This document shows, in pieces, positions 1-43,571 of a DNA stretch of 62,711 nucleotides (its first letter is position 1; every line of letters begins with the position of its first letter). This DNA is from Porticoccaceae bacterium (GTDB lineage: Bacteria > Pseudomonadota > Gammaproteobacteria > Pseudomonadales > GM7GCV1), in NCBI GenBank assembly GCA_018662305.1, contig JABJGI010000148.1, positions 1-62,711 on the forward strand. Direction: 5' to 3'. The position numbers were made by a program, and so were the translations under genes. The notes beneath the pieces are model-generated. The model did not search any database, was not told the DNA's origin, and worked only from the letters and a program-made list of their open reading frames with translations.

Positions 1-204
1 CAGCCTACCGCGGGTGATTATGAGATCGCGTTTGATAATTACACCGCAGATTTCCCAGTTCAGGTTTGGGGATCACTCTACAAGCCCACAGGAGAAGTGG
101 TAATTGCTCCATTTAATCTCAGTGGGTCTTCCGAGCCTGTTTCCGTTTTAGGGTTTTCGATTTCAAATGAATTTGAATATCAGGAGACTTTCCGTGGACC
201 ATAA
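1..204 (+). CDS. 3' end of an ORF that begins upstream of the window; hypothetical protein
   Basis: Frame 1 is open from base 1 to TAA at 202-204 (QPTAGDYEIAFDNYTADFPVQVWGSLYKPTGEVVIAPFNLSG...). No motif recognised. Confidence 0.3.
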   Translation, partial: QPTAGDYEIAFDNYTADFPVQVWGSLYKPTGEVVIAPFNLSGSSEPVSVLGFSISNEFEYQETFRGP

Positions 205-261: not shown

Positions 262-660
262 ATGAAAACTTACATTGTCGGACGAAGTGATTCTGCCGAT
301 ATTCAATTGGAAGATTCTTCAGTATCAGGTCAGCACTTGAGCATTACTCCGCAGTCAGGTCGATGGCACGTAAAGGACTTGGACTCTACCAATGGGACAT
401 TTGTGATGAATACCCAAGGAAAGCATGAGATCAAAGAAGAGACGCTAGAAGGATCAGAGCGACTGCTTTTAGGAAACTGTGTGGTTGCTCTGGCGGATTT
501 GACAGCAGGAATCCAGCCCCAGTCCCAATCTCAGCTAGAGTCAGGGGCAGGGGCAGGTGCAGGTGCACAGAAGGACACAGGTAGACAAAGCTCTGAAGAC
601 AGTGGTTTTAGTCGATATATACGGACCGAAGATGGTCGCTACGTGAGGAAATCAAAATAA
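262..660 (+). CDS. small single-domain FHA protein
   Basis: 132 aa. FHA core IVGRSDSADIQLEDSSVSGQHLSI...VKDLDSTNGTFV. AGGAGG at 250-255. Stop overlaps the next start (TAATG 658-662). Confidence 0.75.
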   Translation: MKTYIVGRSDSADIQLEDSSVSGQHLSITPQSGRWHVKDLDSTNGTFVMNTQGKHEIKEETLEGSERLLLGNCVVALADLTAGIQPQSQSQLESGAGAGAGAQKDTGRQSSEDSGFSRYIRTEDGRYVRKSK

Positions 661-1487
661 TGCTATCACATGCCGTTTTGGTCCGAATTATCGGAATAGT
701 TGTGGGTGTTTTATGGGTGGTACTCCTGAGTTTCGGGTTGCCCATTAGTGTTGACGAGTCCGGTTTCTCCTGGCATGCGTTTTTAATAGCCACTCAAGAC
801 CCCATGTATCCCTTCAATGTGCAGGTGCTGATGTGGATTGCATTCTTTTATTGCCTATCTGAGGTCGCAATAAAAAGTTTTGGACAAATTGAAGAGCGTC
901 GCTGGATGAACGCCTTCTCGCTTTACCAGAACCCGAGCGCTGTCACCGTCTATACCGCAAAGGGGGAAGAGGTTCGCGTTGATCTGGACTCCAATGAAGC
1001 CCTTAAGCCCGAGCTGTTGGCGGCAATTTTTTATGCAAAACGCAAACAGCTGAATCCCAAAGCGGCAATCACAGCTATCTTCAAAAAGATCAATCATCAG
1101 TTTCAGAGTACCAACGACGTGGGTGACGTCTACAGCGCAGTAACAGCGGACATTGATATGCGGTTGCATCAGGTAGACCTGAGCTACACCGTTATTCGCT
1201 ATCTGGTTTGGCTAATCCCCACGCTTGGCTTTATCGGCACGGTTATTGGCATTGCGCTGGCCTTAGGTCAGGCGGCTGCACTGGGAACCGGCGATCCGGA
1301 AATGCTTGAAAAAGTCATTCCCATGCTCGCGACAGCCTTCTACACAACTTTGCTGGCCCTCCTGCAATCTGCCGTGCTTATGATTCTGATTCAAGTAGTA
1401 CAGGCGAAGGATGAGCAATTGGTCAACACAGTGGGTGCCTTCTGTATGGATGAGATAGTGACTAACCTGAAACCCGGCTCAAATTAA
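660..1487 (+). CDS. MotA/TolQ/ExbB-family-like integral membrane protein
   Basis: 275 aa. N-terminal TM segments, a long soluble loop, then LIPTLGFIGTVIGIALAL ... PMLATAFYTTLLALLQSAVLMILI, which resembles the MotA/ExbB channel signature by eye. No ExbD/TolR/MotB-like partner nearby. Confidence 0.5.
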   Translation: MLSHAVLVRIIGIVVGVLWVVLLSFGLPISVDESGFSWHAFLIATQDPMYPFNVQVLMWIAFFYCLSEVAIKSFGQIEERRWMNAFSLYQNPSAVTVYTAKGEEVRVDLDSNEALKPELLAAIFYAKRKQLNPKAAITAIFKKINHQFQSTNDVGDVYSAVTADIDMRLHQVDLSYTVIRYLVWLIPTLGFIGTVIGIALALGQAAALGTGDPEMLEKVIPMLATAFYTTLLALLQSAVLMILIQVVQAKDEQLVNTVGAFCMDEIVTNLKPGSN

Positions 1488-1501
1488 TCTGGTGTATCAC
1501 G

Positions 1502-2173
1502 ATGAGTAGAATTGGCGATGACGACAAGAGTGCAACCCGCATTATCCGTAGCGATCCTACGCGATTAGTGCGCAAGTCCAAGGACAAAAAGCCCGATCAG
1601 GAAAACGCGACAGTCAAGATTAATCCTGCGTCTACGGGGAATAGCAGCAATGCACTATCTCCCGCCGAAGAGGCAACAAAAAAGCTCGACCCAGCTGTCC
1701 AGAAAAAGATTGAAGCAACTGGCAGGCGCGATCAGCCAGAGTTTATGAAGACGGGCGATAAAACCAAGGTGTTCAAGCCATCATCGGACAGTGGCTCCGA
1801 AGAAGATGTTAAAGAGAACGAAACACCTGTCGTGGGCTGGTTGGTTATTGTCGATGGGCCGGGGAAAGGGACGGCACTGGAGTTCAGTTTTGGACTACAG
1901 ACCATCGGGCGAGATTCTGGTCAGTCAATTTCCCTGGATTTTGGCGATGAAGAAATATCTCGTGAAGCACACGCCACCCTTGAATACGACCCCCGAGAGC
2001 GAAAGGTGTACCTGAGCAAAGGCGCAAACCTTGTGTACCTAAACAGCGAACGTGTAGGTCAGGGCGCAGAAATTGGTCTCAAATGGGGTGATGTCATCGA
2101 ACTCGGGGCTACCAAGCTACGATTTGTCTCATTCTGTAGCCCGGATTTTTGCTGGACGGACGGCGACGGCTGA
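1502..2173 (+). CDS. FHA-domain protein with a Lys/Ser/Asp-rich disordered N-terminus
   Basis: 223 aa. C-terminal FHA: VVGWLVIVDGPGKGTALEFSFGLQTIGRDSGQSISLDFGDEEISREAHATLEYD...VYLNSERV. Confidence 0.75.
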   Translation: MSRIGDDDKSATRIIRSDPTRLVRKSKDKKPDQENATVKINPASTGNSSNALSPAEEATKKLDPAVQKKIEATGRRDQPEFMKTGDKTKVFKPSSDSGSEEDVKENETPVVGWLVIVDGPGKGTALEFSFGLQTIGRDSGQSISLDFGDEEISREAHATLEYDPRERKVYLSKGANLVYLNSERVGQGAEIGLKWGDVIELGATKLRFVSFCSPDFCWTDGDG

Positions 2174-2178
2174 TCTAA

Positions 2179-3069
2179 ATGAAAGCAGTCTGGAGCGCAG
2201 CTCAGATTCAGGGATCACGTGATTATCAGGAAGATTTTTTTGCCGTGGTTGATTCCGACCTGGTCTATTACCGTGATCAAGAATACGAACTTGAAGAAGG
2301 CATCGCTTTGCAGGGGCAGACATTGCTCATACTCGCCGATGGCATGGGGGGAATGGGGCACGGTGATTTAGCCGCCGCTCAGATAATCGAAAATTTTATA
2401 AAGTACTACTTAGCGGAATATCAGGATACGCAGGATATTGGCGATAGCATGTTGTCCGGTATGCAGAGCGCAAATCAGATACTCACCGGCCTTGTCGCTG
2501 AAAATTCTGATTATGAAGGTATGGGCGCTACGCTTATCGCGCTGTTGTGGGATGAAGTTGAGAGCAAGATTTACTGGGTAAGCGTGGGTGACTCCATGCT
2601 CTACTTATACCCTCAAGGTGCAAAGCCGAGAAGGCTGAATGAAAAACACACTTGGAGTGAGCAGTCGGAAAAACTCGCCGCTCAGATTAGCCATCTCTCA
2701 GAAAAAGAGTTTACCGAAATCAAGGATGTGCTTTGTTCAGCTGTAGATGGCTCTGAACTGGAAATGTACGACTTGCAGACTGAAGGTATTGAAATCGGGT
2801 CAGGAGATTTTGTGCTGATAGCTTCAGACGGACTGGAAACACTGAGCCTCGATGCTATTGAAGCCTGTGTGAACGACAGTGAGCAAAGTGTGACGCCGGC
2901 AGATGTTGATACTCTAGTTGAAAGGGTTAGCCATACAGTCGCCTCGCTTATCGAGGATGTGGAGGCAGCGGGCCGGCCCGGACAAGACAATACTACGGTG
3001 ATATTACTTAGCAGTTACCAGGACGTTGATTTGAATATAAATGCAGAACAAGAGGCCGCTGCACAATGA
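2179..3069 (+). CDS. PP2C-family Ser/Thr protein phosphatase
   Basis: 296 aa. Motifs QGSRDYQEDFF, ILADGMGGMGHGDLAA, GMGATLIAL, VSVGDSMLY, IASDGL, QDNTTVILL. Confidence 0.85.
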   Translation: MKAVWSAAQIQGSRDYQEDFFAVVDSDLVYYRDQEYELEEGIALQGQTLLILADGMGGMGHGDLAAAQIIENFIKYYLAEYQDTQDIGDSMLSGMQSANQILTGLVAENSDYEGMGATLIALLWDEVESKIYWVSVGDSMLYLYPQGAKPRRLNEKHTWSEQSEKLAAQISHLSEKEFTEIKDVLCSAVDGSELEMYDLQTEGIEIGSGDFVLIASDGLETLSLDAIEACVNDSEQSVTPADVDTLVERVSHTVASLIEDVEAAGRPGQDNTTVILLSSYQDVDLNINAEQEAAAQ

Positions 3070-3833
3070 ATAAAAATATACTTATCTCGGCGTTAGTGTT
3101 TCTCGTTGTACTCGTAGGCGGGTACTTTTTGGTTGCCGGGGGTTCTTCCAGTGATACGTCGGGAAGCGGATCTGCCGGCAGCGAGACAGCTGGTGAGGGA
3201 GTGGCTAACAGCGCTGCTCAATCGACGGACAAGCCCGCGACTGGGGTAAGCACCTCAAATGGCAGTCCAGACAAGGATGCTGACGAGTTGCTTGTCGGTG
3301 AAAGTGGTTTGCCAAGTGTGCGTTATGTTGAGATTGAAGCGGGAACCCTTGTGGAATCGGTCGCACAGGCACAACAAGTGGTCGATCAACAGTCAGCGGC
3401 ACTAGGAATTGAATTTCCAGCGTCCTTAGCAGTGGTAGACAACACCGAGGACGGATTGGGAAACAGCTACTACCAAATAGACCAGTATTATTCGGAGATT
3501 CCAGTCTACGGCGCGAGTGCTCTGCTGGAAGTTCAGAACAATGAGGCAGAGTTTCTTTCGGGTATCTGGGAAGACAATATTGAGCTAGTTACGGAACCGA
3601 CCTACTCTGCAGAAGAGGCACTAACAATCGCTGCGAACAATCTCGGATCAACACAAGAGACATCTCTCGAGTTTCTCGGACAGCCGGCACTGGTTATTTA
3701 CATATCTAACCTGGATACACATCTAGCATGGCATATGAAGGCCAGAATCTTTGCCGGAAGTGACTACGAAGAGCTGATAGTGGATGCCCACAATCCCAAC
3801 TTCCTACTCCAAGTCAGTCTGGAACTTCACTAA
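3066..3833 (+). CDS. membrane-anchored protein resembling an M4-protease propeptide (FTP/PepSY-like)
   Basis: 255 aa. TM anchor ILISALVFLVVLVGGYFLVAG, Ser/Gly-rich spacer, then YYQIDQYYSEIPVYGASALLEVQNNE and AEEALTIAANNLG, reminiscent of FTP + PepSY modules. ATGA overlap at 3066-3069 and TAATG overlap at 3831-3835. Confidence 0.4.
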   Translation: MNKNILISALVFLVVLVGGYFLVAGGSSSDTSGSGSAGSETAGEGVANSAAQSTDKPATGVSTSNGSPDKDADELLVGESGLPSVRYVEIEAGTLVESVAQAQQVVDQQSAALGIEFPASLAVVDNTEDGLGNSYYQIDQYYSEIPVYGASALLEVQNNEAEFLSGIWEDNIELVTEPTYSAEEALTIAANNLGSTQETSLEFLGQPALVIYISNLDTHLAWHMKARIFAGSDYEELIVDAHNPNFLLQVSLELH

Positions 3834-5602
3834 TGAATAGGGTCCTAAACAGCACAGCCCTACTTATTTTGATGCTGGTTTCAGCGGCGGCATCTGCTCA
3901 ATACAACCTGGTTCACTTCGATATGCAGGAGACTTGTATCGCTGATTCGGTGATAAATCGACTCTACGAAGATATCGCCAGCGGAGGGGCCTCTCGTGTC
4001 GGTCAGACAGGTCAGCAGATGGGTGTGGATGTCACAGATGGCATCGGATTGAGCAGCAAGTCGCAACAATCCGTAGAGGACTTATTGTCAGTAATCGATT
4101 TCTTTGGCGAGCTGGGCTGGAATGCCGCAGGGACTTCAGAGCCAATGCTGCTGTTGTCTAATCTAGCCGACTCAACCTGCGATGGGATGAATGCCTGGTA
4201 CATGAATGTCGAAGACAGCGCGCACATCATGGCGATCTATTATGGGCATGAAGATAGCCCGGATAGCATGGCGAAAGACTATGACTTTGCCAGTCATGAA
4301 TATGGGCATGGTTTCTTTGGGCGGCATCAGCGTGCTCGTTCCCATGAGATAAGCGCATTGAATGAATCCGTATCTGACATGTTTGGGGCTGCCTACAAAG
4401 CCTGGATGACGACGGGCAAAAGCATGGACACCCTGACTGCCCGGCAAGACAGCTATTTGGTCGGCGAGTTTTGGGCGGAAGTTATGCGCGACTACTTTGG
4501 CTATGACGTAGATATTATGCGGGATATGGCCAATCCGGCTGTGGCTGGAGACCCAGACTATTACACGCGAGAAACGGCACGAAACACACCGATCCATTCA
4601 TTGGGCGGCGTTTCCAATCTGGCTTTCGTACTGATGTCGCAGGGAGGTTCACATCCCCGCGGCGCTAGCTCGATTGAGGTTCAGGGAATCGGCATTAAGA
4701 AAGCGATTGAAATTGTCTACTACGCTTTCTTTCATCGTATTCCCTTTAACAATATGCCGGAGTTCGGTGATGCGGTGCGAAAGGCGGCAATACGAATGCA
4801 CGGGCCTGAAAGTGTCGAATATCGTTCGGTAGATATGGCATTTCAAGCAGTTGGCCTAAACAACGGGCTGCCGGCAGCGGAATTGCAGCAACCACAGGAA
4901 GAAGCTGAAGAGTCGCAAAGGGAGCAAGCGCAGCCCGAACCCGAGGTTGTGCAAGAAGAAACAGCAGAAATCGAAGTAGCAGACGAAACCCAACAGGAAG
5001 AAACAGCCGCTCAGCCTGTAATAAGCATCTCAGGACCAACCTTTATGGTCATTCTTCTGGCGGCCATTTTTGCCGGCAGCATGTGCATGGTCTGGTTGGG
5101 CCGCAATCAATCAAAAACAGCCAACGCCGCAAACGAGATGATTGTTGATCATTCAGGCGAAGGCATGCTGGACATGGAAAAACGTAACAGGCCAGCGCAG
5201 GCCGATACAGGAGTCGAACCAAAACAGGAAGCATCTCAGGCTACAGAGGTATTCCGCCCCGCAAAAGTAAAAACAAGCCTAGCGGCAATTTTGACAGTTG
5301 CCGGGCAACGTTTTGAGTTAAGCCTGGATTCTGAACCATTAGAGCTTGGTCGAAGCGCTGAACTGAATCTTCCCGGTGCTTTAAAAGCGGTGCTGGCCGA
5401 GCAGGCCCACATTTCCCGAAGGCATTGTGCAATCTGGTACAAAAGCGCAACAGGCGAGCTCTATCTGGAGTCTCGCAGTGACAATGTTTTGCAATTGGCA
5501 GGACAAAGCATCGCGCCACATTCCAAAGCCAAGATTGATTTTGATCAGCCGATAGAAATCACATTGGCGACATTGATCATCACTCTCGAGCCGATCTCCT
5601 GA
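3833..5602 (+). CDS. thermolysin-like (M4) metallopeptidase domain - acidic linker - TM helix - cytoplasmic FHA domain
   Basis: 589 aa. Signal peptide LLILMLVSAAASA|Q. HEYGH (nt 4295-4309) followed 19 residues later by NESVSDMFG (thermolysin NEAISDIFG-type third zinc ligand). IHSLGGVSNLAFVL resembles the M4 C-terminal VH.NSGI.NKA motif. Linker QQPQEEAEESQREQAQPEPEVVQEE. TM FMVILLAAIFAGSMCMVWLG. C-terminal FHA LELGRSAELNLP...ISRRHCAIWYKSATGELYLESRSDNVLQLAG. Confidence 0.7.
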   Translation: MNRVLNSTALLILMLVSAAASAQYNLVHFDMQETCIADSVINRLYEDIASGGASRVGQTGQQMGVDVTDGIGLSSKSQQSVEDLLSVIDFFGELGWNAAGTSEPMLLLSNLADSTCDGMNAWYMNVEDSAHIMAIYYGHEDSPDSMAKDYDFASHEYGHGFFGRHQRARSHEISALNESVSDMFGAAYKAWMTTGKSMDTLTARQDSYLVGEFWAEVMRDYFGYDVDIMRDMANPAVAGDPDYYTRETARNTPIHSLGGVSNLAFVLMSQGGSHPRGASSIEVQGIGIKKAIEIVYYAFFHRIPFNNMPEFGDAVRKAAIRMHGPESVEYRSVDMAFQAVGLNNGLPAAELQQPQEEAEESQREQAQPEPEVVQEETAEIEVADETQQEETAAQPVISISGPTFMVILLAAIFAGSMCMVWLGRNQSKTANAANEMIVDHSGEGMLDMEKRNRPAQADTGVEPKQEASQATEVFRPAKVKTSLAAILTVAGQRFELSLDSEPLELGRSAELNLPGALKAVLAEQAHISRRHCAIWYKSATGELYLESRSDNVLQLAGQSIAPHSKAKIDFDQPIEITLATLIITLEPIS

Positions 5603-5616
5603 AGCCCCAGATAAAT

Positions 5617-6369
5617 ATGAGCTCCTCAGACAAGGTATTTGGAGCCCAGATTCAGGGCGATCGTAAATTTCAGGAGGACGCGTTTCAGATTGAAAAACGC
5701 GATGAAGGAGTGCTGCTTGTCCTTTGTGATGGAATGGGTGGCCATTCCGGCGGAAATCAGGCGAGCAAGTTAGCCATTGCTACTTTCATCGACAGTTTTT
5801 TCAGCACGAGCGACAGCTTGACTTCCCGTTTGAGGGCGGGTGTCGAAGAAGCCAATAATCGGATTCTTCAGGCGGGCGTAGAGAACCCCGAGCTGAATAA
5901 AATGGGTACCACCTTATTGGCGGTATTTGTTCAAAACAGCCAGATAAATTGGATAAGTGTAGGGGATTCGCCACTCTGGCTTATACGCGGTGGCAATATA
6001 CAACGCCTCAATGCGAACCACTCTCTAGCGGCAGTATTTGAAGAGATGGTTAAAACAGGCCATATGAGCGCCGAGGATGCAGCGACAGATCCAAATCGAC
6101 ATTCGCTTCGCTCTTCATTGTCTGGCGACGAGATCAAGTTAATTGACGAGCGTGAAACGCCATTCGAGCTTCAAGTAGGGGACTGTCTGCTACTCGCAAG
6201 TGATGGTTTGGAAACGCTCCCTGAACAGAAGATACTCGACTTGTGGCAGTCCGAGCCGGACCGTTACATTGAGATGCTTTTGGACGCAGTAGAACAAGCG
6301 GGCAAAGAAAATCAGGATAATACGAGTGCCCTATGCTATTTACTCGGTCAGACGGAGACGACAAACTAA
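5617..6369 (+). CDS. PP2C-family Ser/Thr protein phosphatase (second copy)
   Basis: 250 aa. QGDRKFQEDAF, VLCDGMGGHSGGNQAS, MGTTLLAV, ISVGDSPLW, LASDGLETL, QDNTSAL. Confidence 0.85.
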   Translation: MSSSDKVFGAQIQGDRKFQEDAFQIEKRDEGVLLVLCDGMGGHSGGNQASKLAIATFIDSFFSTSDSLTSRLRAGVEEANNRILQAGVENPELNKMGTTLLAVFVQNSQINWISVGDSPLWLIRGGNIQRLNANHSLAAVFEEMVKTGHMSAEDAATDPNRHSLRSSLSGDEIKLIDERETPFELQVGDCLLLASDGLETLPEQKILDLWQSEPDRYIEMLLDAVEQAGKENQDNTSALCYLLGQTETTN

Positions 6370-6474
6370 AAGCCTGGCATCGCTGGAGAGCGGCATCTAG
6401 AACGGCAACTAGAGCGGCGATTAAGGGGCCAACAGAAATTGATAGATACATACTAATGGCAGGTATTTTCACCT

Positions 6475-8586
6475 ATGGATCATCACGCGCTACCTAACGG
6501 CTTCATGCTGTCTGAGTACCGAATCGACAAGCTTTTGGGCGAAGGCGGTTTTGGTCTGACCTATTTGGGTTTTGATACTCATCTGGAAAAGACGGTTGCG
6601 ATCAAAGAATACTACCCAGCGGATTTTGCATTTCGAAAGGATGGTACGACTGTTGTTGCCAAGAGTGATGCCAGCGCGAAGGATTACGACTGGGGGTTGC
6701 AGGCCTTTTTAAGTGAAGCCAAAACTCTCGCCAAATTTACCGATCCAAATATCGTACAAATATTCCGCTTTTTTGAGGCTCACGGCACCGCTTATATGGT
6801 GATGGAGTTCTGTGAGGGCGGAAACCTGAAAGAGCGCCTAACGCCCGATCAGCCCATGAGCGAAGAGGAAGTTAAGGCGTTCATGATTCCTATCATGAAC
6901 GGTCTGCAACTGGTTCATGAGAGCGAGATATTGCATCGCGACATCAAGCCAGAAAACATAATGTTTCGCCGGAATGGCACGCCCGTCCTTATCGATTTTG
7001 GTGCCGCGCGACAGGCGATTGGCGCCAAAAGTCGATCAATCACGACCATTGTTACTCCAGGTTTTGCTCCGATCGAGCAATACAGTTCAAAAGCAGTAGT
7101 GGGTCCCTCAAGTGATATTTATTCCTTGGCTGCCGTTGTATACAACTGTCTGACTGGCCAGAGACCTGATGATGCAATGGATCGCATAATGGTCGATGAA
7201 CTCGATAAATTAGGAGAGAAACCAAACTCCTCAGCATTTTTAAAGTCGATAGACAAAGCTCTGTCCGTTCACGCGGAGCAGCGTCCGCAGAACCTGATTG
7301 ACTGGTATGAAGCCTGGCAAGAGCAAGACGAAGAAGGCGAAGATTCAGTCGCAGCAGAATCTGACCGTTCAATTCGCAAACCGGCAGACCCCACAGTCGT
7401 TATCCCCCGCGAAGAGCAAACTAAAGAAGGGAAAAACAGCGGAGGAAATAATTTCCGCGCACTACCAGTAATCATTATCGTTTTCGTTCTTGCCGGACTA
7501 GGTATTGGGGCCTATAACTTTATGGGCTCACCGGATCCCGACATAACCGATACCACAGGTGAACAAGGCGTCGGGGAAGGAAATGGAGATGTATCTAATG
7601 TGCAAGAAACTGTTGCGGAAGAAATATTACCAACTTCCTCGTCGGAAGAATCTGAGGCTGAAGCCCTGCGCCAGCTGGTGATGGATGTACAGTCCGAATT
7701 GCTGCGATTGGGCTATGACATCGGCACCGCAGATGGTGTTTTAGGTGCGCGAACTACCGCGGCGGTCGGTTATTTTCAGGCGGCTACCGGAACGACGGTG
7801 GACGGTGAAATTGACGAGGTTTTGTTATCTGCCCTGCAATCCACACAAAGCCGCCCCGGGCCTTCACCAGGCGACAGCATTCAGGACTGTGATGAGTGCC
7901 CGCAACTGGTTGTCATCCCAGAAGGAAGTTTCGACATGGGCTCCAATTCTGAAGGGGAAAGCGAGCGGCCTCTAACTTCGGTCAGTATTCGCCAGCCCAT
8001 TGCTATTGGTGTCTATGAAGTTACTTTTGACGAGTGGGGCACTTGCATTCTCGAAGGCGGTTGTTCGACAAGACCCTATTCAGAAGGTTGGGGCCGAGGT
8101 ACTCGCCCGGTGATGAATGTGAGTTGGGAAGATACTCAGCAATATCTTGCCTGGCTAAATAATAAAACCGGTGAGTCCTACCGATTACCCTCAGAAGCAG
8201 AATGGGAGTACGCGGCACGTGCCGGCACATCTACAGATTATTTCTGGGGTACTGATGTCGGTTCATATCGAGCCAACTGTGATGGTTGTGGCAGCGAGTG
8301 GGACAATGAACAAACGGCGCCAGCCGGAAGCTTCTCACCAAACAATTTTGGTCTCTATGACGTTCATGGCAACGTCAATGAATGGGTACAGGATTGCTGG
8401 TACGACAATCACGCTGGGGCTTCCGGAAATGAGGCAGCCCGAGAGTACAGTGGCTGTACTGACCGCGTATACAAAGGCGGATCTTGGTATAGCTACGCTG
8501 AGTTTCTGCGAGTTAGCAACCGAACCCCACAGGCCGCGTCAGAAATTCGCTCCTGGACTGGATTTCGTGTCGTTAGAGACCTCTAA
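6475..8586 (+). CDS. Hanks-type Ser/Thr kinase - TM - peptidoglycan-binding domain - FGE/SUMF1-like domain
   Basis: 703 aa. GEGGFGLTY, VAIKEY, HRDIKPENIM, DFGAAR, GFAPIEQY. TM LPVIIIVFVLAGLGIGAY. PG_binding-like LLRLGYDIGTADGVLGARTTAAVGYFQ. C-terminal FGE-type CDECPQLVVIPEGSFDMGS...YRLPSEAEWEYAARAG...GLYDVHGNVNEW...KGGSW...GFRVV. Confidence 0.85.
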   Translation: MDHHALPNGFMLSEYRIDKLLGEGGFGLTYLGFDTHLEKTVAIKEYYPADFAFRKDGTTVVAKSDASAKDYDWGLQAFLSEAKTLAKFTDPNIVQIFRFFEAHGTAYMVMEFCEGGNLKERLTPDQPMSEEEVKAFMIPIMNGLQLVHESEILHRDIKPENIMFRRNGTPVLIDFGAARQAIGAKSRSITTIVTPGFAPIEQYSSKAVVGPSSDIYSLAAVVYNCLTGQRPDDAMDRIMVDELDKLGEKPNSSAFLKSIDKALSVHAEQRPQNLIDWYEAWQEQDEEGEDSVAAESDRSIRKPADPTVVIPREEQTKEGKNSGGNNFRALPVIIIVFVLAGLGIGAYNFMGSPDPDITDTTGEQGVGEGNGDVSNVQETVAEEILPTSSSEESEAEALRQLVMDVQSELLRLGYDIGTADGVLGARTTAAVGYFQAATGTTVDGEIDEVLLSALQSTQSRPGPSPGDSIQDCDECPQLVVIPEGSFDMGSNSEGESERPLTSVSIRQPIAIGVYEVTFDEWGTCILEGGCSTRPYSEGWGRGTRPVMNVSWEDTQQYLAWLNNKTGESYRLPSEAEWEYAARAGTSTDYFWGTDVGSYRANCDGCGSEWDNEQTAPAGSFSPNNFGLYDVHGNVNEWVQDCWYDNHAGASGNEAAREYSGCTDRVYKGGSWYSYAEFLRVSNRTPQAASEIRSWTGFRVVRDL

Positions 8587-8628: not shown

Positions 8629-9648
8629 TTAGTCTGAAGCTCGCAAGAACATGCTTGCCGCTTCAGGGTCGCAGTTATAGGGCTCGGGAACTACGTGGGG
8701 GGAATAGATCAATTCGCGTGCGTGGCGAATAGGTGATGCCATGAATTCAGGGTCTTCGACAACAAATTCAAGGGCAATACGCTCTCCATTATCAATTAAC
8801 CTATAACGCTCCACGACGCGCTTCTGCGCGCCAGAGGGAACGCCAATTTGGTAAGGCGCACGGTGATCGGTGAAATTTGCCGTGTTGACCACTAGCGTGT
8901 CACCTTCCCAGTGACCGATCGAATGACCTGTCTGGAAACGCTCACTGATGTCGGGATGCCCACGACCATCCATATGGACGACCCGAACCTCGTCCCAATA
9001 TTCTGTTTGGATGAGGATAGTGTCTTCATCTTGAAAAACGAATTCGATAGGGAAGAGAGTGCTTGAAAGGAGCATTCCTGGTGTCGGTCGACCGACGCAG
9101 CCCGCCATAGGATTTTCGGCGGACAGAGGTTCAAATGCCTCCAGAGCAGCGCGTCCCTTTTCGGTCAGTTCGATGTGAGCCAGAATAAATGCGTCAAATT
9201 CGAACTCACCGTCCGGCAGGCTAGCGTGATCGGTCATCCACAATCCCTCTAGGGTTGTTGCAGCAGCCTGAACAGCGGGCGTATAAAAATTCACGCCTGA
9301 AATCATGCCCTGTTCTAAGTCGACTGAGTCGACCAGACCGTAAGGACGACCATTGACCGCGGCGTGCACTCTCGTCACCACCTGGTCTCCGACACTCAAG
9401 GTGTTCTCCGTCCATCCCATACGCGATGCGGAAGGGATTGAACCCAGTTGCATGGACCACTCCTCGGTCTCACCAGATTCCCCCATTGTCTCGAGCGTGA
9501 AATATGCGTGGGGATTACGCCAATAGAACCCAGTGATGCTTCCTTCAAAGCTTGTGAGGTTCTCCATATCCAAACCTGCATCGCTGTGATGTGCGCTTGC
9601 GGTTGCCGCAAAAAATAAAGCCAGGCTGCATAAGATTAGGGTTTTCAT
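8629..9648 (-). CDS. secreted HH-NPH family protein, long form (P1; DUF6152-like N-terminal module, recalled from memory)
   Basis: 339 aa. Signal peptide ending ATASA then HHSDAG. WRNPH. C-terminal GHSIGHWEGDTLVVNT, VVERY, EDPEF, two Cys in the mature part. AAGGAG upstream. Confidence 0.7.
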   Translation of the reverse strand: MKTLILCSLALFFAATASAHHSDAGLDMENLTSFEGSITGFYWRNPHAYFTLETMGESGETEEWSMQLGSIPSASRMGWTENTLSVGDQVVTRVHAAVNGRPYGLVDSVDLEQGMISGVNFYTPAVQAAATTLEGLWMTDHASLPDGEFEFDAFILAHIELTEKGRAALEAFEPLSAENPMAGCVGRPTPGMLLSSTLFPIEFVFQDEDTILIQTEYWDEVRVVHMDGRGHPDISERFQTGHSIGHWEGDTLVVNTANFTDHRAPYQIGVPSGAQKRVVERYRLIDNGERIALEFVVEDPEFMASPIRHARELIYSPHVVPEPYNCDPEAASMFLRASD

Positions 9649-9696
9649 CGTCGCTCTCCTTTAGTGAGGCTTCATCTCGCTAGATCAGAAAATCAC

Positions 9697-10617
9697 TTAT
9701 CCGAGTGAATGGAAGTGTTCAAACATCCTTTGTCGCATCGCTTCGTCGGGCAGACGTCCAAATCCTGAACTCATATTGTCTAGGGCGTAACGGGGGTTTC
9801 TGGTTTCCGACAGGGCGCATGTCACAGCGGGATGAGAGAGGATGTATTTGAGTGAAAACTGGGCCCAGGAAGTACAATCGAATTCCGCTGCCCAATCTGG
9901 AAGTTCGTGTCCAGCTACCGTGCCAAAGTAGGCGCCATTAACAAAGGGCCGGGTGGTTATCACGGCGACGCCGTTCGCCATTGCCGCAGGCAGAACACGG
10001 TTCGCCGCGTCAGGCTGAAGCATGGAATAGTTGACCTGCATAATATCCAATTCGCCGGCCTCGATAAGTTTCAGAGTTTGCTCTTCTTCTACCTGGTCAG
10101 TGGTATGAGTTATGCCAATGTAGCGCGTTCGTCCCGCATCCTTCCAATCTTTAAGAGTGGGCCAATGGTTGTCCATATCCATCAAGAGGTTGACCATTAA
10201 AAGGTCGGCGGGATTTTTACGCATCGAACGCTGCAATATCTCAAGGTGCTCAATTCCCTCCTGTTTTCCAGTCACCGTGATTTTTGCAGAGAGAAAGGTC
10301 TCGTCCAGCACGTCCATCTCTTCGAGAAGAGAGCCCAAAACCGGAATTCGGCCCCGCAGAATCGAAGGGTTATCTATCACTTTTCCACCCATCTCAAGCA
10401 TGGTCTGAACTACGGACATAGGTACTTCCTTGCCGCCCTCCGGAAGTTCCATAAACACCGGTGAGGAGCCGAGCCCGCACACAGGTAACTCCTCGCCAGT
10501 TTTGGGTATCGCCCGTCTGCGCATGCTCTCCTGAGCTAGTGCAGGAGTTGGCAGCGTTGCAGCAACTGTGGAGGCTGCGCTAGCTGAAAGAAATTGTCTT
10601 CGGTTAAAGCTATTCAT
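9697..10617 (-). CDS. Tat-signal aldo/keto-reductase-fold protein
   Basis: Start moved to the internal ATG (MNSFNRRQFLSASAASTVAATLPTPALA), 8 nt after the stop of the upstream gene. Twin-arginine motif RRQFL. AKR-like (beta/alpha)8 motifs FLSAKITV, YIGITHTT, ITTRPF, SETRNPRYALDNM. Confidence 0.65.
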   Translation of the reverse strand: MNSFNRRQFLSASAASTVAATLPTPALAQESMRRRAIPKTGEELPVCGLGSSPVFMELPEGGKEVPMSVVQTMLEMGGKVIDNPSILRGRIPVLGSLLEEMDVLDETFLSAKITVTGKQEGIEHLEILQRSMRKNPADLLMVNLLMDMDNHWPTLKDWKDAGRTRYIGITHTTDQVEEEQTLKLIEAGELDIMQVNYSMLQPDAANRVLPAAMANGVAVITTRPFVNGAYFGTVAGHELPDWAAEFDCTSWAQFSLKYILSHPAVTCALSETRNPRYALDNMSSGFGRLPDEAMRQRMFEHFHSLG

Positions 10618-10625
10618 CACAGATC

Positions 10626-11654
10626 CTATTGGCTGTCCGTGGCACATTGATAAGGTTTGATTTCTTCACCAGGAACCCAAGGGAAAACTTGTTCCTGTAC
10701 AACGGGCTCGGTAAAGGTATTGGGATCATTGATAGTTGCTTGCCAATGTAGGCCGGTTTCGTCTTCATTGACTGTCCATCGTTCCATAACATGCACTTCG
10801 TTAGACATCGGCGTGCCTCTGTCATCAAATGATTGAGCTTGAATATTGGTTGTTTCAACAACCAAAGTGTCGCCTTCCCAGTGTCCTACTGAATAGCCCT
10901 CGCGTGACGCCGGGAATTCAGCTGCGACGGAAATGTCTCCTCCCATGTGGATAGTGCGCACCGTATCCCATGATTCCAAGCGCAAGATGATGTCGTCGCC
11001 CTGCTGGCTAAATTCAATAGGCATGGAGACGTCCATAACAGCCGGCATGGCAGTGGGAATGCAGTTTAAAACAGGGTCTTTCGTAGGGTCGTAGGCTTCT
11101 TTCGACGCGGCTGCCGATTCAGTTAGAGGCAGTGGATCGTTGAGGTTTCGAACAAAGCCGCGAGACCAGGTGCGGAAAATGCCGTCCGCCTGAGCGATGT
11201 ATTCCTCAATATTTCGAGTTTCGATCTCCGGAACTGAGATGACCAGCTCCCGATCGGGCCAGCGACGTTCGGGAGGATTTCGAGGCCACAAGATAACCTC
11301 GAATTGATCTGCTACCAGGAGGTTGTAGGCGCGCATTTGATTACTGGCACGTCTGGCTGGTGGACCCCAAAAAGAAACAGTATCACCAAGGCTAAGTGTG
11401 TCCGGGCTTACACCCAGTCGTTCCAGCTGGTTTACAGCATTGCTTTCCACAATCCACTCTTCTTCCTGACCACTTTCGTTTGTGACTGTCAGAGTGAAAG
11501 ATGAATGCGGATTGCGCCAGGCGGCATCGGTTACCACTCCGGAGATCTCGACGCGCGAGTCGCCATCAAAAAATACCGCGCCGGAATGATGCGCATAAAG
11601 TTCGGGGGCAACTAGAAAGAGACCGGTAATGATGGCTGCTGAGATTAGTTTCAT
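10626..11654 (-). CDS. secreted HH-NPH family protein, long form (P2)
   Basis: 342 aa. ...PELYA then HHSGAV. WRNPH. GYSVGHWEGDTLVVET. Conserved Cys pair (VLNCIPT, YQCATD). Confidence 0.7.
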   Translation of the reverse strand: MKLISAAIITGLFLVAPELYAHHSGAVFFDGDSRVEISGVVTDAAWRNPHSSFTLTVTNESGQEEEWIVESNAVNQLERLGVSPDTLSLGDTVSFWGPPARRASNQMRAYNLLVADQFEVILWPRNPPERRWPDRELVISVPEIETRNIEEYIAQADGIFRTWSRGFVRNLNDPLPLTESAAASKEAYDPTKDPVLNCIPTAMPAVMDVSMPIEFSQQGDDIILRLESWDTVRTIHMGGDISVAAEFPASREGYSVGHWEGDTLVVETTNIQAQSFDDRGTPMSNEVHVMERWTVNEDETGLHWQATINDPNTFTEPVVQEQVFPWVPGEEIKPYQCATDSQ

Positions 11655-11687
11655 TGCGGATTTATCCTATGGCGTGTCTTGCTTGTC

Positions 11688-12707
11688 TTACTCCGAAAAA
11701 CGTTTGGCAGAATCGACTTCGCATTCGAAGGGCTGAACGGAGACGCCCGTTGCGGCGCGGTTCATGATCATGCTCCCAGTATAGAGATCTGTGAGATATA
11801 CCGGGTCTTCAATATCGTAATCGAGTGTAAGCACCTGCCCATCTTCGCTGACTGAATATCGCTCAACCACCCGTTTTTGCTCACTTGATGGGATATCTGC
11901 AGGAGGCCCCTTAGGTTGTGCTTCAGATGAAAGCCCCCAACGAGAAGCCGGATAAGCCTGACTTTCAATCACCATGACATCTCCTTCCCAACTGGCAGCA
12001 GCTACTCCCATATAACCGGTAGGATCGGCTGGGATAGGATCGGAATCAAAAGGAATGGTTCTGGTTATGCCGTAAGCCTCGTGCACAAAAATCACTTTTT
12101 CATCATCGATCTGAATATCCGTCAGATAGGGTGAAAGCTGGAGATCTGGAATGGAGAAGGGCTCACAGGTTGTCGCGGGCGAAAGGGTATGGTCGTAGTT
12201 CTCCGCAGCGATTTGTCCAGCTTCGTTCAGAGGTAAAGCCGGTTGAGGGTTCAGGAAGGGCAGGGGCGATGTCCACATGCCTTCGATGCCCATTCCGGCT
12301 TCTTCTTGGGCTGCTTGCGCGGACAGGTCAGGGTGCTCCCCGTAAACCGCACCAGATACTGCGGTCATGGCTCGACCGTAAACTAGGTTTCTTCCTTCTA
12401 CTCGGTTCGGCCACACCACTGCGGAGACATTGTCTCCCGGGCTAAAGGTACTCTGGGCAATACCCATACGCCGTAACATGATGCTCGAGGGGAGTTCGAC
12501 CTCCCAGACAAAGGTTTCACCGCGCTCATCTAGAGACTCGAGCGTGAAAAAAGAATGCGGATTGCGCAAATTAAAATCGGTAACAATACCTTCGATCTCC
12601 ATAGTCCTGCTGGGATCAAAATGCATGGCAAAAGCGTGATGAGATTGCGCTGTTGAGCAAAGCAAGCTGACTACGACAGCTAAGATCGAGAACAGAATGG
12701 CCTTCAT
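11688..12707 (-). CDS. secreted HH-NPH family protein, long form (P3)
   Basis: 339 aa. ...TAQS then HHAFAMHFD. LRNPH. SWEGDVMVIES. VVERY. Cys pair (TTCEPF, FECEVD). GGGGGAAG upstream. Confidence 0.7.
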   Translation of the reverse strand: MKAILFSILAVVVSLLCSTAQSHHAFAMHFDPSRTMEIEGIVTDFNLRNPHSFFTLESLDERGETFVWEVELPSSIMLRRMGIAQSTFSPGDNVSAVVWPNRVEGRNLVYGRAMTAVSGAVYGEHPDLSAQAAQEEAGMGIEGMWTSPLPFLNPQPALPLNEAGQIAAENYDHTLSPATTCEPFSIPDLQLSPYLTDIQIDDEKVIFVHEAYGITRTIPFDSDPIPADPTGYMGVAAASWEGDVMVIESQAYPASRWGLSSEAQPKGPPADIPSSEQKRVVERYSVSEDGQVLTLDYDIEDPVYLTDLYTGSMIMNRAATGVSVQPFECEVDSAKRFSE

Positions 12708-12972
12708 TTGCTTCCCCCAAGCATCATTGAACCAATTGGTAAGTGTGACTTGATCGCTAAAATTTGCAACCGAGCCTAATGCTGTTCCTTTCCCGAGAAA
12801 TCATGCGCCAAAGAGTCCCTTTGTGTCAGGATTTAGGGTCCAGGTCTTCAGAGTTTCTTAACAACCCTAATGCCGTCCTTATGCTAGTATTTTTGCGTGG
12901 CCTGCCGAAGTTGTTCTTCTGCAGGCGTATGGTTTAACCCTTCGGTATCCACTCCAACAGAGGAATAGTTAA

Positions 12973-13443
12973 TTGAAAAAACTGATATCCGCACTCACCT
13001 TTTTAACCCTCACTTTCTTCGGCTCGAATGCCTTTGCTCAGTACTCAGAGTACGGAGATCCCATTGGCACTGAGTTGGCCAAGGAAGCAGCAGCTGCGGC
13101 GCTAGCTGTTGTCGAGGAGAACGGATGGCAGATGGCTGTTTCGGTTGTCGATCCTTCCGGTAATCTTGTCTACTTTGAGAAAGTAGATGGCACTCAGCAT
13201 GCCTCCATTGAGATCTCAATGGCCAAAGCACAAGCTGCTGCCGGTTTTAGACGACCATCTTCAGTCTGGGTAAACGTTATTGCGAATGTCCCCTCCATTA
13301 CTACATTGCCTGGCGTTGTAGGCTCACCTGGTGGAGTTCCTATCGTAGTTGATGGCGCGGTCATCGGCGCTATCGGTTGTTCAGGAGCGACTGGCGAGCA
13401 AGACGGCATCGCCTGTGACGCGGGTGCTGCAGCAATAGACTAA
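12973..13443 (+). CDS. exported GlcG/HbpS-like (DUF336) protein
   Basis: 156 aa, TTG start. Signal peptide LTFFGSNAFA|Q. WQMAVSVVDPSGNLVYFEKVDG...ISMAKAQAAA...GGVPIVVDGAVIGAIGCSGATGEQD is typical of the GlcG/DUF336 family. Confidence 0.65.
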   Translation: MKKLISALTFLTLTFFGSNAFAQYSEYGDPIGTELAKEAAAAALAVVEENGWQMAVSVVDPSGNLVYFEKVDGTQHASIEISMAKAQAAAGFRRPSSVWVNVIANVPSITTLPGVVGSPGGVPIVVDGAVIGAIGCSGATGEQDGIACDAGAAAID

Positions 13444-13483
13444 GACACTAAATGAATATCTTGGGCCTGTGTGATGTCCAGGT

Positions 13484-13517
13484 AAAAAAAAGCCCTACCA
13501 AGTTGGTGGGGCTTTTT
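13484..13517. terminator. bidirectional intrinsic terminator between convergent genes
   Basis: A-run, stem GCCCTACCA / TGGTGGGGC (one G-U), 3-nt loop, then TTTTT. Confidence 0.6.
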
Positions 13518-13568
13518 ATTTAGGAGTTTTTATTTAGGGCTTCCCCCTAGGCTATTTTTTGAGCAAGG

Positions 13569-39138: not shown

Positions 39139-39286
39139 GTGTTGCTTCTGAGAAAGCATAAGTAACTGAATTTGTAGAATTTCTGCGGCTGGCCCATTTG
39201 CTGGGGCGGTCGATTCAACTCTTGGACTGCGGGTTGAATAGAGTATGCAGGCAGTCCACCTACTGAAAGCTAGGGAGCTGAAACTG

Positions 39287-43519: not shown

Positions 43520-43571
43520 AACAGTAAGTGATACGCCCCTTACTGTTTAACTCTCTATTGGAGGAAAGGCC

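What the first reader, a model, noticed from the sequence alone, without database searches (positions are those of the whole stretch)
3066..5602. Thermolysin-like protease wired to a cytoplasmic FHA domain, with its propeptide encoded as a separate membrane-anchored ORF
Seen: ORF 3833-5602 has a signal peptide and an apparently intact M4 active site. That site comprises HEYGH at nt 4295-4309, NESVSDMFG 19 residues later, and IHSLGGVSNLAF further on. An acidic linker, one TM helix and a C-terminal FHA domain follow. The preceding ORF (3066-3833, TAATG overlap) is a TM-anchored protein whose soluble part looks like the FTP/PepSY propeptide. In canonical M4 enzymes that propeptide is fused N-terminally to the catalytic domain. 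Established: M4 propeptides act as folding chaperones and inhibitors, and FHA domains bind pThr. Inference: the predicted topology puts the catalytic domain in the periplasm and the FHA domain in the cytoplasm. Kinase activity could therefore recruit or regulate an extracytoplasmic protease, with an in-trans inhibitor-like partner. I do not know of a described M4-TM-FHA architecture.
Basis: partly seen in the sequence, partly recalled or inferred. Interest (0 to 1): 0.7.

Follow-up and report, generated by a model that had tools for sequence, protein, structure and literature searches.

The report
Membrane M4 protease with FHA tail
This is a real, conserved but unstudied membrane protein of marine bacteria: a thermolysin-type zinc protease faces the periplasm and a phosphothreonine-binding FHA domain faces the cytoplasm, the protease's propeptide is made as a separate membrane-anchored protein, and in relatives that propeptide is fused to a PP2C phosphatase.

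Summary
ORF 3833-5602 encodes signal peptide, M4 (thermolysin-like) domain, acidic linker, one TM helix and an FHA domain. ORF 3066-3833 encodes an N-terminal TM anchor, a linker and a complete FTP+PepSY propeptide homologue.

The zinc-binding, catalytic and pThr-binding residues are essentially invariant across 28 family representatives. Charge bias places the M4 domain in the periplasm and the FHA domain in the cytoplasm.

The interpretation needs three corrections:
- **The architecture is not unique.** M4+TM+FHA proteins form about 100 sequence clusters in marine Gammaproteobacteria (Alteromonas, Thioalkalivibrio, SAR86, Marinobacter, Teredinibacter). They are annotated only as "M4 family metallopeptidase", and I found no paper on them.
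- **The pair belongs to a larger conserved cluster.** It contains FHA, MotA/ExbB-like, FHA, PP2C, FTP-ORF, M4-FHA, PP2C and a Ser/Thr kinase.
- **The propeptide module is itself wired.** In relatives it is the periplasmic half of a PP2C-TM-FTP/PepSY protein. In two metagenomic proteins everything is one chain: PP2C-TM-propeptide-M4-TM-FHA. The window's ORF boundary lies exactly at the propeptide/mature junction of those proteins.

The most likely mechanism is a trans-membrane protease/propeptide pair coupled to Ser/Thr phospho-signalling. Its substrates and biological role are unknown. I rate it as an uncharacterised new variant of known kinds, of fairly high interest.

The parts
1..203 (+). 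3' end of a conserved ~212-aa protein of unknown function that precedes the cluster in relatives
   Evidence: 35% identical to the C-terminus of the Teredinibacter 212-aa protein at L001 3994-4629. The same family is found in the Marinobacter and JGI loci and in L019.
262..660 (+). Small cytoplasmic FHA protein (FHA1)
   Evidence: Pfam FHA 3.9e-16. Conserved position in all related loci.
660..1487 (+). MotA/ExbB/TolQ-like membrane protein, the best conserved member of the cluster
   Evidence: Pfam MotA_ExbB 2.4e-12. 63-72% identity in related loci. Hydrophobic segments. No ExbD/MotB-like partner was seen.
1502..2173 (+). FHA protein with a long N-terminal tail that gives no Pfam match (FHA2)
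   Evidence: Pfam FHA 5.1e-8, residues 134-202.
2179..3069 (+). Soluble PP2C phosphatase (PP2C1). In relatives it is fused through a TM helix to the FTP/PepSY module
   Evidence: Pfam PP2C_2 1.4e-9 and NCBIfam Stp1 family 4.4e-27. No TM helix. Fused PP2C-TM-FTP proteins in L013-L017. ATGA overlap with the next ORF.
3066..3833 (+). Membrane-anchored propeptide homologue: TM anchor (residues 5-23, nt 3078-3134), Gly/Ser-rich linker, FTP+PepSY core (about residues 112-255, nt 3399-3830), C-terminal His
3833..5602 (+). Signal peptide - M4 peptidase - acidic linker - TM - FHA protein
3833..3898 (+). Predicted Sec signal peptide (residues 1-22, ...ASA|QY)
   Evidence: Hydrophobic segment 4-22. Every family representative has an N-terminal hydrophobic segment, and HExxH lies at about residue 141-164.
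3899..4867 (+). Periplasmic M4 catalytic domain (about residues 23-345). It includes HEYGH at 4295-4309, NESVSDMFG at 4361-4387 and the H255 motif at 4592-4627
4868..5026 (+). Acidic, Glu/Gln/Pro-rich linker (about residues 346-398)
   Evidence: Sequence. pLDDT below 50.
5042..5098 (+). Single TM helix (residues 404-422), preceded by the conserved SISGPTF motif and followed by GRNQSK
5279..5599 (+). Cytoplasmic FHA domain (about residues 483-589) with G506-R507, S528-x-x-H531 and N551
5617..6369 (+). Second PP2C phosphatase (PP2C2)
   Evidence: Pfam PP2C_2 1.4e-16 and NCBIfam Stp1 family 2.8e-42.
6475..8586 (+). Hanks-type Ser/Thr kinase - TM (residues 329-347) - PG_binding_1 - FGE-sulfatase/C-type-lectin-like domain
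   Evidence: Pfam Pkinase 1.8e-41, PG_binding_1 1.7e-11, FGE-sulfatase 9.7e-51. TM helix.

Best explanation
ORF 3833-5602 is a catalytically competent thermolysin-family zinc endopeptidase. It is exported by a cleavable signal peptide and held on the periplasmic face of the inner membrane by one C-terminal TM helix. Its cytoplasmic tail ends in a functional pThr-binding FHA domain. ORF 3066-3833 is its propeptide (FTP+PepSY), supplied in trans as an N-terminally anchored periplasmic protein and translationally coupled to it.

Like cis propeptides of M4 enzymes, this protein most likely assists folding of the catalytic domain. It then most likely stays bound as an inhibitor until it is displaced or degraded. 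The FHA domain docks the protease onto Thr-phosphorylated proteins produced by the operon's transmembrane Hanks kinase and erased by the two PP2C phosphatases. Protease position or activity at the envelope and cytoplasmic phospho-signalling would thereby be coupled.

Relatives show the logic more openly. There the propeptide is the ectodomain of a PP2C phosphatase, or the whole device is one chain (PP2C-TM-propeptide-M4-TM-FHA). Autoprocessing of that chain would yield exactly the two membrane proteins seen here.

Shown here: domain identities, conservation of catalytic and pThr-binding residues, topology bias, gene linkage, and the fusion and fission variants. Inferred: chaperone/inhibitor action, the FHA ligand, the direction of signalling, and the substrates.
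For: - **M4 identity and residues.** assign the fold. In 28 representatives H155, E156, H159, D182, R230 and N120 are 28/28, E178 is 27/28, and H255 is His in 23 and Tyr in 5.
- **Periplasmic signature.** C35 is conserved in 28/28 and C116 in 26/28.
- **FHA.** Fold match. G506, R507 and R529 are 28/28, H531 and N551 27/28, S528 24/28.
- **Topology.** Positive-inside bias of 98 K/R on the C-flank against 27 on the N-flank.
- **Propeptide homology through FTP and PepSY.**
- **The ORF ends at the pro/mature junction of fused relatives.** Window ...SLELH* followed by SP-QYNLVHFDMQETC, against P0072 ...LVFH|TRDRHVHDMSAAC and P0201 ...VTLH|GLERRVYDFGAAC.
- **Rosetta-stone fusions.** P0201 (on two independent contigs) and P0216 are PP2C-TM-FTP/PepSY-M4-TM-FHA chains inside the same gene cluster.
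- **Linked genes.** PP2C-TM-FTP/PepSY genes overlap or abut the M4-FHA gene in five loci.
- **Conserved order.** The FTP-ORF then M4-FHA order, with start/stop overlap, recurs in the window, Teredinibacter, Marinobacter, Methylococcaceae and metagenomes.
- **Signalling partners.** A kinase and PP2Cs lie in the operon.
- **From the literature.** A reference listed in PMC3327674 (Chang et al. 2007, seen) reports by its title that an M4 propeptide is both inhibitor and substrate of its enzyme.
Against: - No experiment exists for any member.
- The equivalents of thermolysin Tyr157 and Asp226 are not conserved in this subfamily, so activity may be low or the mechanism altered.
- The AF2 model of the protease is mediocre (mean pLDDT 61) and the model of the FTP ORF failed (pLDDT 38). 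No structural model of the complex could be made.
- The Teredinibacter locus has no kinase within 10 kb, so kinase linkage is not universal.
- In most relatives the protease has its own cis propeptide. The second, PP2C-tethered propeptide may therefore have a role other than folding.
- Topology rests on hydropathy and charge bias only, not on a dedicated predictor or experiment.
Confidence: 0.6

Rival explanations
1. The FTP/PepSY protein is primarily a regulated substrate or receptor ectodomain rather than a foldase. The M4 protease cleaves the propeptide-like ectodomain, which ancestrally belonged to the PP2C phosphatase, to switch phosphatase signalling. That would be a form of regulated proteolysis. 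In the window lineage this link has been loosened by fission.
For: In type II systems the protease has its own cis propeptide, yet a second FTP/PepSY domain is kept on the PP2C. Split-type FTP ORFs resemble that PP2C-tethered module more than cis propeptides. M4 propeptides are known substrates of their enzymes (reference seen).
Against: The window protease has no cis propeptide at all, so some folding help from the trans module is the simplest expectation. The ORF ends exactly at the pro/mature junction. The all-in-one proteins have only one FTP/PepSY module, directly in front of the catalytic domain.
Confidence: 0.2
2. The M4 domain is a non-catalytic or weakly catalytic ligand-binding module (a pseudo-protease sensor). 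It reports a periplasmic peptide signal to the cytoplasm through the FHA domain.
For: The equivalents of the transition-state residue Tyr157 and the His-orienting Asp226 of thermolysin are lost and variable in this subfamily. H255 is replaced by Tyr in 5 of 28 representatives.
Against: The zinc ligands, the catalytic Glu, D182, R230 and the N120/A121 substrate-binding motif are invariant or nearly so over 28 divergent representatives. That is the pattern expected for an active enzyme. Tyr can substitute for His as transition-state stabiliser in other zinc peptidases (my own knowledge).
Confidence: 0.1
3. The cluster is an anti-phage or conflict system, Zorya-like through its MotA-like protein or related to kinase-based defences. 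The envelope protease would be an effector.
For: The MotA-like protein gives weak ZorA matches (1.4e-6) and the kinase matches defence kinase models. In L020 the system is flanked by DUF4276/AAA_15 pairs and DndB. In L015 it is followed by TIR-WD40 proteins.
Against: PADLOC has no match for the M4-FHA or FTP proteins, and the ZorA matches are partial hits to the generic MotA/ExbB domain. No ZorB-like partner is present. In most genomes the neighbours are housekeeping genes such as recA, alaS or pyruvate oxidoreductase. The system is present in SAR86-cluster genomes.
Confidence: 0.08
4. The split into separate PP2C, FTP and M4-FHA ORFs is an artefact: frameshift, sequencing error or pseudogenisation of a longer gene.
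For: Relatives do encode fused versions.
Against: The three-gene arrangement recurs in at least eight independent loci (L001, L002, L005, L006, L007, L008, L019 and the window). The junctions differ: a 200-nt spacer in Teredinibacter and a whole kinase gene inserted in the JGI locus. Each M4-FHA of this type has its own N-terminal hydrophobic, signal-like segment.
Confidence: 0.02

Closest known systems
Thermolysin/vibriolysin-type M4 peptidases with an N-terminal FTP-PepSY propeptide (thermolysin 5a3y; MCP-02 autoprocessed complex 3nqy/3nqz)
   Same: Same catalytic fold and zinc site (HExxH...NExxSD), the same substrate-binding Asn-Ala and Arg, and the same His. The partner ORF is homologous to the whole propeptide and ends where a processed propeptide ends.
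   Different: Canonical enzymes are secreted and soluble and carry the propeptide in cis. Here the enzyme is membrane-tethered and carries a cytoplasmic FHA domain, and the propeptide is a separate TM-anchored protein. The Tyr157 and Asp226 equivalents are not conserved.
Lipase-specific foldase Lif with lipase LipA of Pseudomonas/Burkholderia (from my own knowledge, not tested here)
   Same: A membrane-anchored periplasmic steric chaperone encoded next to, and co-expressed with, the enzyme it folds.
   Different: Unrelated folds. Lif's client is secreted, and no link to phospho-signalling is known.
Actinobacterial FhaA/FhaB-PstP-PknA/PknB cell-envelope module
   Same: An operon combining small FHA proteins (the best NCBIfam hit of FHA1 is FhaB/FipA, 2.2e-13), a PP2C that in relatives is a TM protein with an extracytoplasmic domain, and a TM Hanks kinase with a peptidoglycan-binding ectodomain.
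   Different: The ectodomains differ: PG_binding_1 plus FGE-sulfatase rather than PASTA. There are no rodA/pbpA genes. This system adds a MotA/ExbB-like protein and the protease-FHA and propeptide pair, which have no counterpart there.
Type VI secretion threonine-phosphorylation pathway (PpkA/PppA/Fha1)
   Same: A Gram-negative TM Hanks kinase, a PP2C and an FHA protein that is recruited to pThr to control an envelope machine.
   Different: No T6SS structural genes lie in or next to the cluster. The FHA domain here is fused to a periplasmic protease.
BlaR1/MecR1 sensor-proteases
   Same: A membrane protein that couples a zinc metalloprotease domain to a domain on the other side of the membrane for signalling (PMC3356374, listed).
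   Different: The topology is reversed, with the protease cytoplasmic and the sensor outside. The protease family differs, and there is no phospho-signalling and no propeptide partner.

Membership tests
Peptidase family M4 (thermolysin) | HExxH plus a downstream Glu (NExxSD) zinc site with the catalytic Glu | tested here: met
   HEYGH at 155-159, with E178 and D182 in NESVSD. Invariant in 28 representatives, with one E178D exception.
Peptidase family M4 (thermolysin) | C-terminal alpha-helical domain (Pfam PF02868) above the gathering score | tested here: met
   74.4 bits against a 24.4 cutoff, E 1.3e-20.
Peptidase family M4 (thermolysin) | N-terminal beta-rich catalytic domain (PF01447) with the Asn-Ala substrate-binding motif | tested here: inconclusive
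   PF01447 is not detected in the window protein. It is detected in family members P0010, P0023 and P0030. The NA(W/F)Y motif is invariant. Foldseek aligns 310-352 columns to 4ger and 1npc, but model confidence there is only about 65-75.
Peptidase family M4 (thermolysin) | Transition-state residues His231, Tyr157 and Asp226 (thermolysin numbering) | tested here: not met
   The His231 equivalent H255 is present (23 His and 5 Tyr in 28). The positions aligned to Tyr157 and Asp226 are Arg in the window and variable in the family.
Peptidase family M4 (thermolysin) | FTP/PepSY propeptide in cis, N-terminal to the catalytic domain | tested here: not met
   HExxH lies at residue 155, directly after a signal peptide and a domain of about 130 aa. 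All 28 representatives are the same. The propeptide homologue is the separate ORF 3066-3833.
FHA domain | Pfam PF00498 above the gathering score | tested here: inconclusive
   The window protein scores 19.5 bits against a 20.7 cutoff. Homologues P0006, P0009, P0021, P0023, P0030 and P0038 pass. An insertion between the GR and SxxH motifs (21 residues from R507 to S528, helix 515-522 in the model) probably lowers the score.
FHA domain | Beta-sandwich fold | tested here: met
   Model pLDDT about 85-90 over residues 480-589. Foldseek matches more than 40 solved FHA domains, with target TM-score 0.6-0.76 and rmsd 2.3-3.5.
FHA domain | pThr-binding residues Gly-Arg, Ser-x-x-His and Asn | tested here: met
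   G506 and R507 28/28, S528 24/28, H531 27/28, N551 27/28.
M4 propeptide (FTP + PepSY) | FTP motif (PF07504) above the gathering score | tested here: met
   23.6 bits against a 21 cutoff, E 4.8e-5, residues 120-152.
M4 propeptide (FTP + PepSY) | PepSY-type second half, contiguous with FTP | tested here: met
   There is no direct Pfam PepSY hit. The family profile aligns through the PepSY part of the thermolysin and MCP-02 propeptides, and hhalign against Bacillus propeptides gives 98.5% over 140 columns.
M4 propeptide (FTP + PepSY) | Acts as intramolecular chaperone or inhibitor of its cognate enzyme | not testable with these tools
   Needs biochemistry or a multimer co-fold. The single-chain AF2 model of the ORF failed (pLDDT 38).
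Zorya (ZorA/ZorB) defence system | ZorA with its long C-terminal tail, plus a ZorB partner | tested here: not met
   Only partial hits to the MotA/ExbB core of ZorA (E 1.4e-6, 275 aa against 461-583-aa models). No ZorB-like protein is present.
T6SS threonine-phosphorylation pathway | Linkage to T6SS structural genes | tested here: not met
   None appears in the cluster or within 10 kb in any of the loci inspected.

The most novel reading that the evidence does not exclude
The protease-TM-FHA and propeptide-TM-PP2C proteins form a new kind of trans-envelope signalling switch. In the all-in-one form, autoprocessing of a periplasmic pro-protease cuts one polytopic chain into a phosphatase-bearing half and a pThr-reader-bearing half, held together only by the propeptide-enzyme complex. 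Degradation or displacement of the propeptide in the periplasm would then separate the PP2C from the FHA-bound phosphoproteins. Protease activation outside the cell membrane would thus be converted into a change of Ser/Thr phosphorylation inside, or the reverse. No described bacterial signalling system works this way.
Probability: 0.3. Interest if true: 0.85.

Novelty: new variant of a known kind. Interest (0 to 1): 0.66.

Why it matters
Bacterial Hanks-kinase/FHA/PP2C modules are widespread, but their outputs are mostly unknown, especially in Gram-negative bacteria. Here the pThr reader is welded to an envelope protease. In relatives the phosphatase is welded to that protease's propeptide.

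This gives a concrete, testable physical link between periplasmic proteolysis and cytoplasmic phospho-signalling. It also provides a natural series of the same device as one, two or three genes. That series shows where the propeptide/mature boundary lies and shows that an M4 propeptide can be supplied in trans by nature, not only in laboratory constructs.

The system occurs in abundant marine groups (SAR86, Alteromonas, Marinobacter) and in cultivable species, so genetics is feasible.

Tried and rejected
- **AF2 model of the FTP ORF.** The five close homologues the tool would accept gave pLDDT 38, which is unusable. A co-fold of the pair is not possible with the single-chain tool, and the two ORFs are in different frames.
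- **Other loci from the genome scan.** L009-L012 turned out to be ordinary secreted M4 enzymes without FHA, in unrelated contexts.
- **PADLOC scan.** It found nothing for the M4-FHA or FTP proteins, and only generic MotA/ExbB and kinase hits.
- **Literature.** Searches for M4/thermolysin with FHA, PepSY with PP2C, and FHA with MotA/ExbB with PP2C found no paper on such proteins or on this cluster. The eLife 2020 survey of vWA/FGS conflict systems mentions FHA and PP2C only in passing and does not mention MotA.
- **Diversity-generating retroelement.** I looked for a template/variable repeat pair near the reverse transcriptase and FGE-sulfatase genes of L002. Only kinase and FGE paralogue repeats appeared.
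- **C-terminal His of the FTP ORF as a universal feature.** It is conserved in the window clade, Teredinibacter and Methylococcaceae. It is not terminal in the JGI protein (...KHM) and is absent in Marinobacter (...VLQR). I therefore treat it only as a marker of the junction.
- **Origin of the FTP ORF.** Family-level HMMs favour the PP2C-tethered module. Single BLAST comparisons are mixed. The all-in-one proteins make the distinction partly moot.

Full report
**1. What is in the window**

Positions 262-8586 on the + strand form one tightly packed operon:
- a small FHA protein (262-660)
- a MotA/ExbB/TolQ-like membrane protein (660-1487)
- a second FHA protein (1502-2173)
- a PP2C phosphatase (2179-3069)
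- the FTP ORF (3066-3833)
- the M4-FHA ORF (3833-5602)
- a second PP2C (5617-6369)
- a Hanks-type Ser/Thr kinase with one TM helix and periplasmic PG_binding_1 and FGE-sulfatase domains (6475-8586)

The first 203 bases are the end of a conserved 212-aa protein that precedes the cluster in relatives. PP2C1 and the FTP ORF overlap by ATGA. The FTP and M4-FHA ORFs overlap by TAATG.

**2.

*M4 domain.* Pfam gives Peptidase_M4_C at 1.3e-20. Thermolysin is the best solved relative by sequence (6e-13) and by fold (Foldseek 5.6e-8, probability 1.0). The residue-level alignment shows these equivalents of thermolysin residues:
- present: His142, Glu143, His146, Glu166, Asp170, Arg203, His231 and the Asn112-Ala113 motif
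- replaced and variable: Tyr157 and Asp226

In 28 representatives of the subfamily the first set is invariant or nearly so, with H255 being His in 23 and Tyr in 5. A conserved Cys pair (C35, C116) fits a periplasmic domain.

*FHA domain.* The C-terminal 110 residues are modelled with pLDDT of about 85-90 and match many solved FHA domains. The pThr-binding Gly-Arg, Ser-x-x-His and Asn are conserved. An insertion between the GR and SxxH motifs (21 residues from R507 to S528, a helix at 515-522 in the model) probably explains the sub-threshold Pfam score in the window protein.

*Topology.* Hydropathy finds a signal-like N-terminus and one TM helix at 404-422. Over 28 representatives the 15 residues before the helix carry 27 K/R and 43 D/E. 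The 15 residues after it carry 98 K/R and 28 D/E. The FHA side is therefore cytoplasmic and the M4 side periplasmic.

*FTP ORF.* It has one N-terminal helix (5-23) after MNKN, then a Gly/Ser-rich linker, then a domain that is homologous to the whole M4 propeptide.

**3. The architecture is not unique**

- The word-indexed search found only ten close clusters, one of them named (Teredinibacter purpureus, "M4 family metallopeptidase").
- The exhaustive profile search found about 24 clusters at 50% identity with the same full-length, propeptide-less architecture. Scores then drop sharply to generic M4 enzymes.
- Among those generic hits were proteins of about 710-860 aa with a propeptide, M4, linker, TM and FHA.
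- A search seeded with one of them listed about 85 clusters at 90% identity carrying both Peptidase_M4_C and FHA. They come from Alteromonas, Thioalkalivibrio, the SAR86 cluster, Alishewanella, Arsukibacterium and many metagenomes, all with generic names.
- No paper on such proteins was found.

**4. One conserved system in three gene configurations**

All loci inspected share FHA, MotA/ExbB-like, FHA and PP2C genes, a larger FHA protein (with a weak vWA or trypsin-like N-terminal part), often a vWA protein, one or more Hanks kinases, and the protease.

| Type | Genes | Where seen |
|---|---|---|
| III | soluble PP2C + TM-FTP/PepSY + SP-M4-TM-FHA | window, L019, Teredinibacter, three Marinobacter, a JGI metagenome. 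L007 (Methylococcaceae MAG) shows only the FTP ORF and M4-FHA, and no TM helix was found in its FTP ORF |
| II | PP2C-TM-linker-FTP/PepSY gene overlapping or abutting SP-FTP/PepSY-M4-TM-FHA | Alteromonas, Thioalkalivibrio, SAR86, MAGs |
| I | single chain PP2C-TM-FTP/PepSY-M4-TM-FHA, no internal signal peptide | two metagenomic proteins, one on two independent contigs |

The junctions line up as follows:
- window FTP ORF: ...FLLQVSLELH*, and the mature protease starts QYNLVHFDMQETC
- P0072: ...LVFH|TRDRHVHDMSAAC
- P0201...VTLH|GLERRVYDFGAAC

The window's ORF boundary is therefore the propeptide/mature boundary. Family HMMs place the stand-alone FTP ORFs nearer the PP2C-tethered module (57-72 bits) than the cis propeptides (27-44 bits). 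Single-sequence comparisons are mixed.

**5. How it most likely works**

*Shown:*
- a conserved, apparently active periplasmic M4 domain tethered to a cytoplasmic pThr reader
- a cognate propeptide supplied in trans and translationally coupled
- genetic linkage, and in relatives physical fusion, of that propeptide to a PP2C
- a transmembrane Hanks kinase and PP2Cs in the same operon

*Inferred:*
- The FTP/PepSY protein assists folding and then inhibits the protease, as cis propeptides do. The solved autoprocessed MCP-02 complex is listed, and the reference seen reports inhibitor-and-substrate behaviour.
- The FHA domain docks the protease onto Thr-phosphorylated system components.
- The kinase and PP2Cs thereby control where or when the protease acts, or the protease/propeptide state feeds back on phosphorylation.

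I put about 0.6 on this general picture. Lower weight goes to a substrate/receptor role for the FTP module, a pseudo-enzyme sensor, or a defence function. Substrates and physiological role remain unknown. The PG-binding domain on the kinase and the similarity of the module to FhaA/FhaB-PstP-PknB suggest envelope surveillance, but that is only a lead.

**6. Verdict**

- The finding is real and more than chance.
The protein is a member of an unrecognised, fairly widespread family, part of a larger system, and its in-trans propeptide is ancestrally or alternatively the ectodomain of a PP2C phosphatase.
- I classify it as a new variant of known kinds (M4 peptidase with propeptide; Hanks kinase/FHA/PP2C module).
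- There is a realistic chance (about 0.3) that the protease/propeptide pair constitutes a new trans-envelope signalling mechanism.

Noticed in passing
window 8629-14528 (- strand): Four paralogous secreted proteins of about 320-340 aa with an N-terminal DUF6152 domain (8629-9648, 10626-11654, 11688-12707, 13569-14528), interleaved with a Tat-signal aldo/keto reductase (9697-10647). The same neighbours follow the cluster in the close relative L019.
   Followed up: partly
window 660-1487; L001, L002, L005, L006: The MotA/ExbB-like protein is the most conserved member of the cluster (63-72% identity). No ExbD/MotB/TolR-like partner is encoded, and none of the TM helices extracted from the operon's proteins contains an Asp. 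What it does without a stator partner is unexplained.
   Followed up: partly
L002 13729-16305 and 17829-21559: In the JGI metagenome locus a Ser/Thr kinase is fused to HSP70 and DnaJ_C domains. It is followed by tandem kinase paralogues (repeat families at 13729, 17829 and 20061), several with FGE-sulfatase ectodomains.
   Followed up: no
L002 1-2087: A reverse-transcriptase gene (RVT_1) and a small ORF lie just upstream of an FGE-sulfatase protein at the start of the cluster. This suggests a diversity-generating retroelement, but no template/variable repeat pair was found in the stretch held.
   Followed up: partly
L020 3985-6033 and 16461-19351; L015 16753-22136: In some genomes the system sits in defence-island-like surroundings: DUF4276 + AAA_15/21 ATPase pairs and DndB in L020, and two giant TIR-WD40 proteins in L015. 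In others it lies among housekeeping genes.
   Followed up: no
window 5021-5041 (residues 397-403 of the M4-FHA protein): An ISISGPT(F) motif immediately before the TM helix is nearly invariant in the propeptide-less subfamily and absent from the cis-propeptide type. It could be a contact site for another membrane component.
   Followed up: no
L014 4111-5616, L015 3880-5271, L016 3331-5259, L017 3390-5354, L018 2643-4358, L020 12336-13709: Type I and II clusters carry a second FHA protein of 460-650 aa whose N-terminal part gives weak Trypsin_2 matches. In Teredinibacter the corresponding protein gives a weak vWA match. This is possibly a second protease-FHA pairing in the same system.
   Followed up: no
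L018 10001-12550 and 19657-22323: One 5.67-Mb genome carries two M4-TM-FHA paralogues about 7 kb apart. Only the second is preceded by a PP2C gene.
   Followed up: no
window 39245-47843: Two adjacent ORFs of about 1420 aa on the + strand, the size of rpoB/rpoC. I did not examine them. If they are rpoB/rpoC, the window is chromosomal.
   Followed up: no
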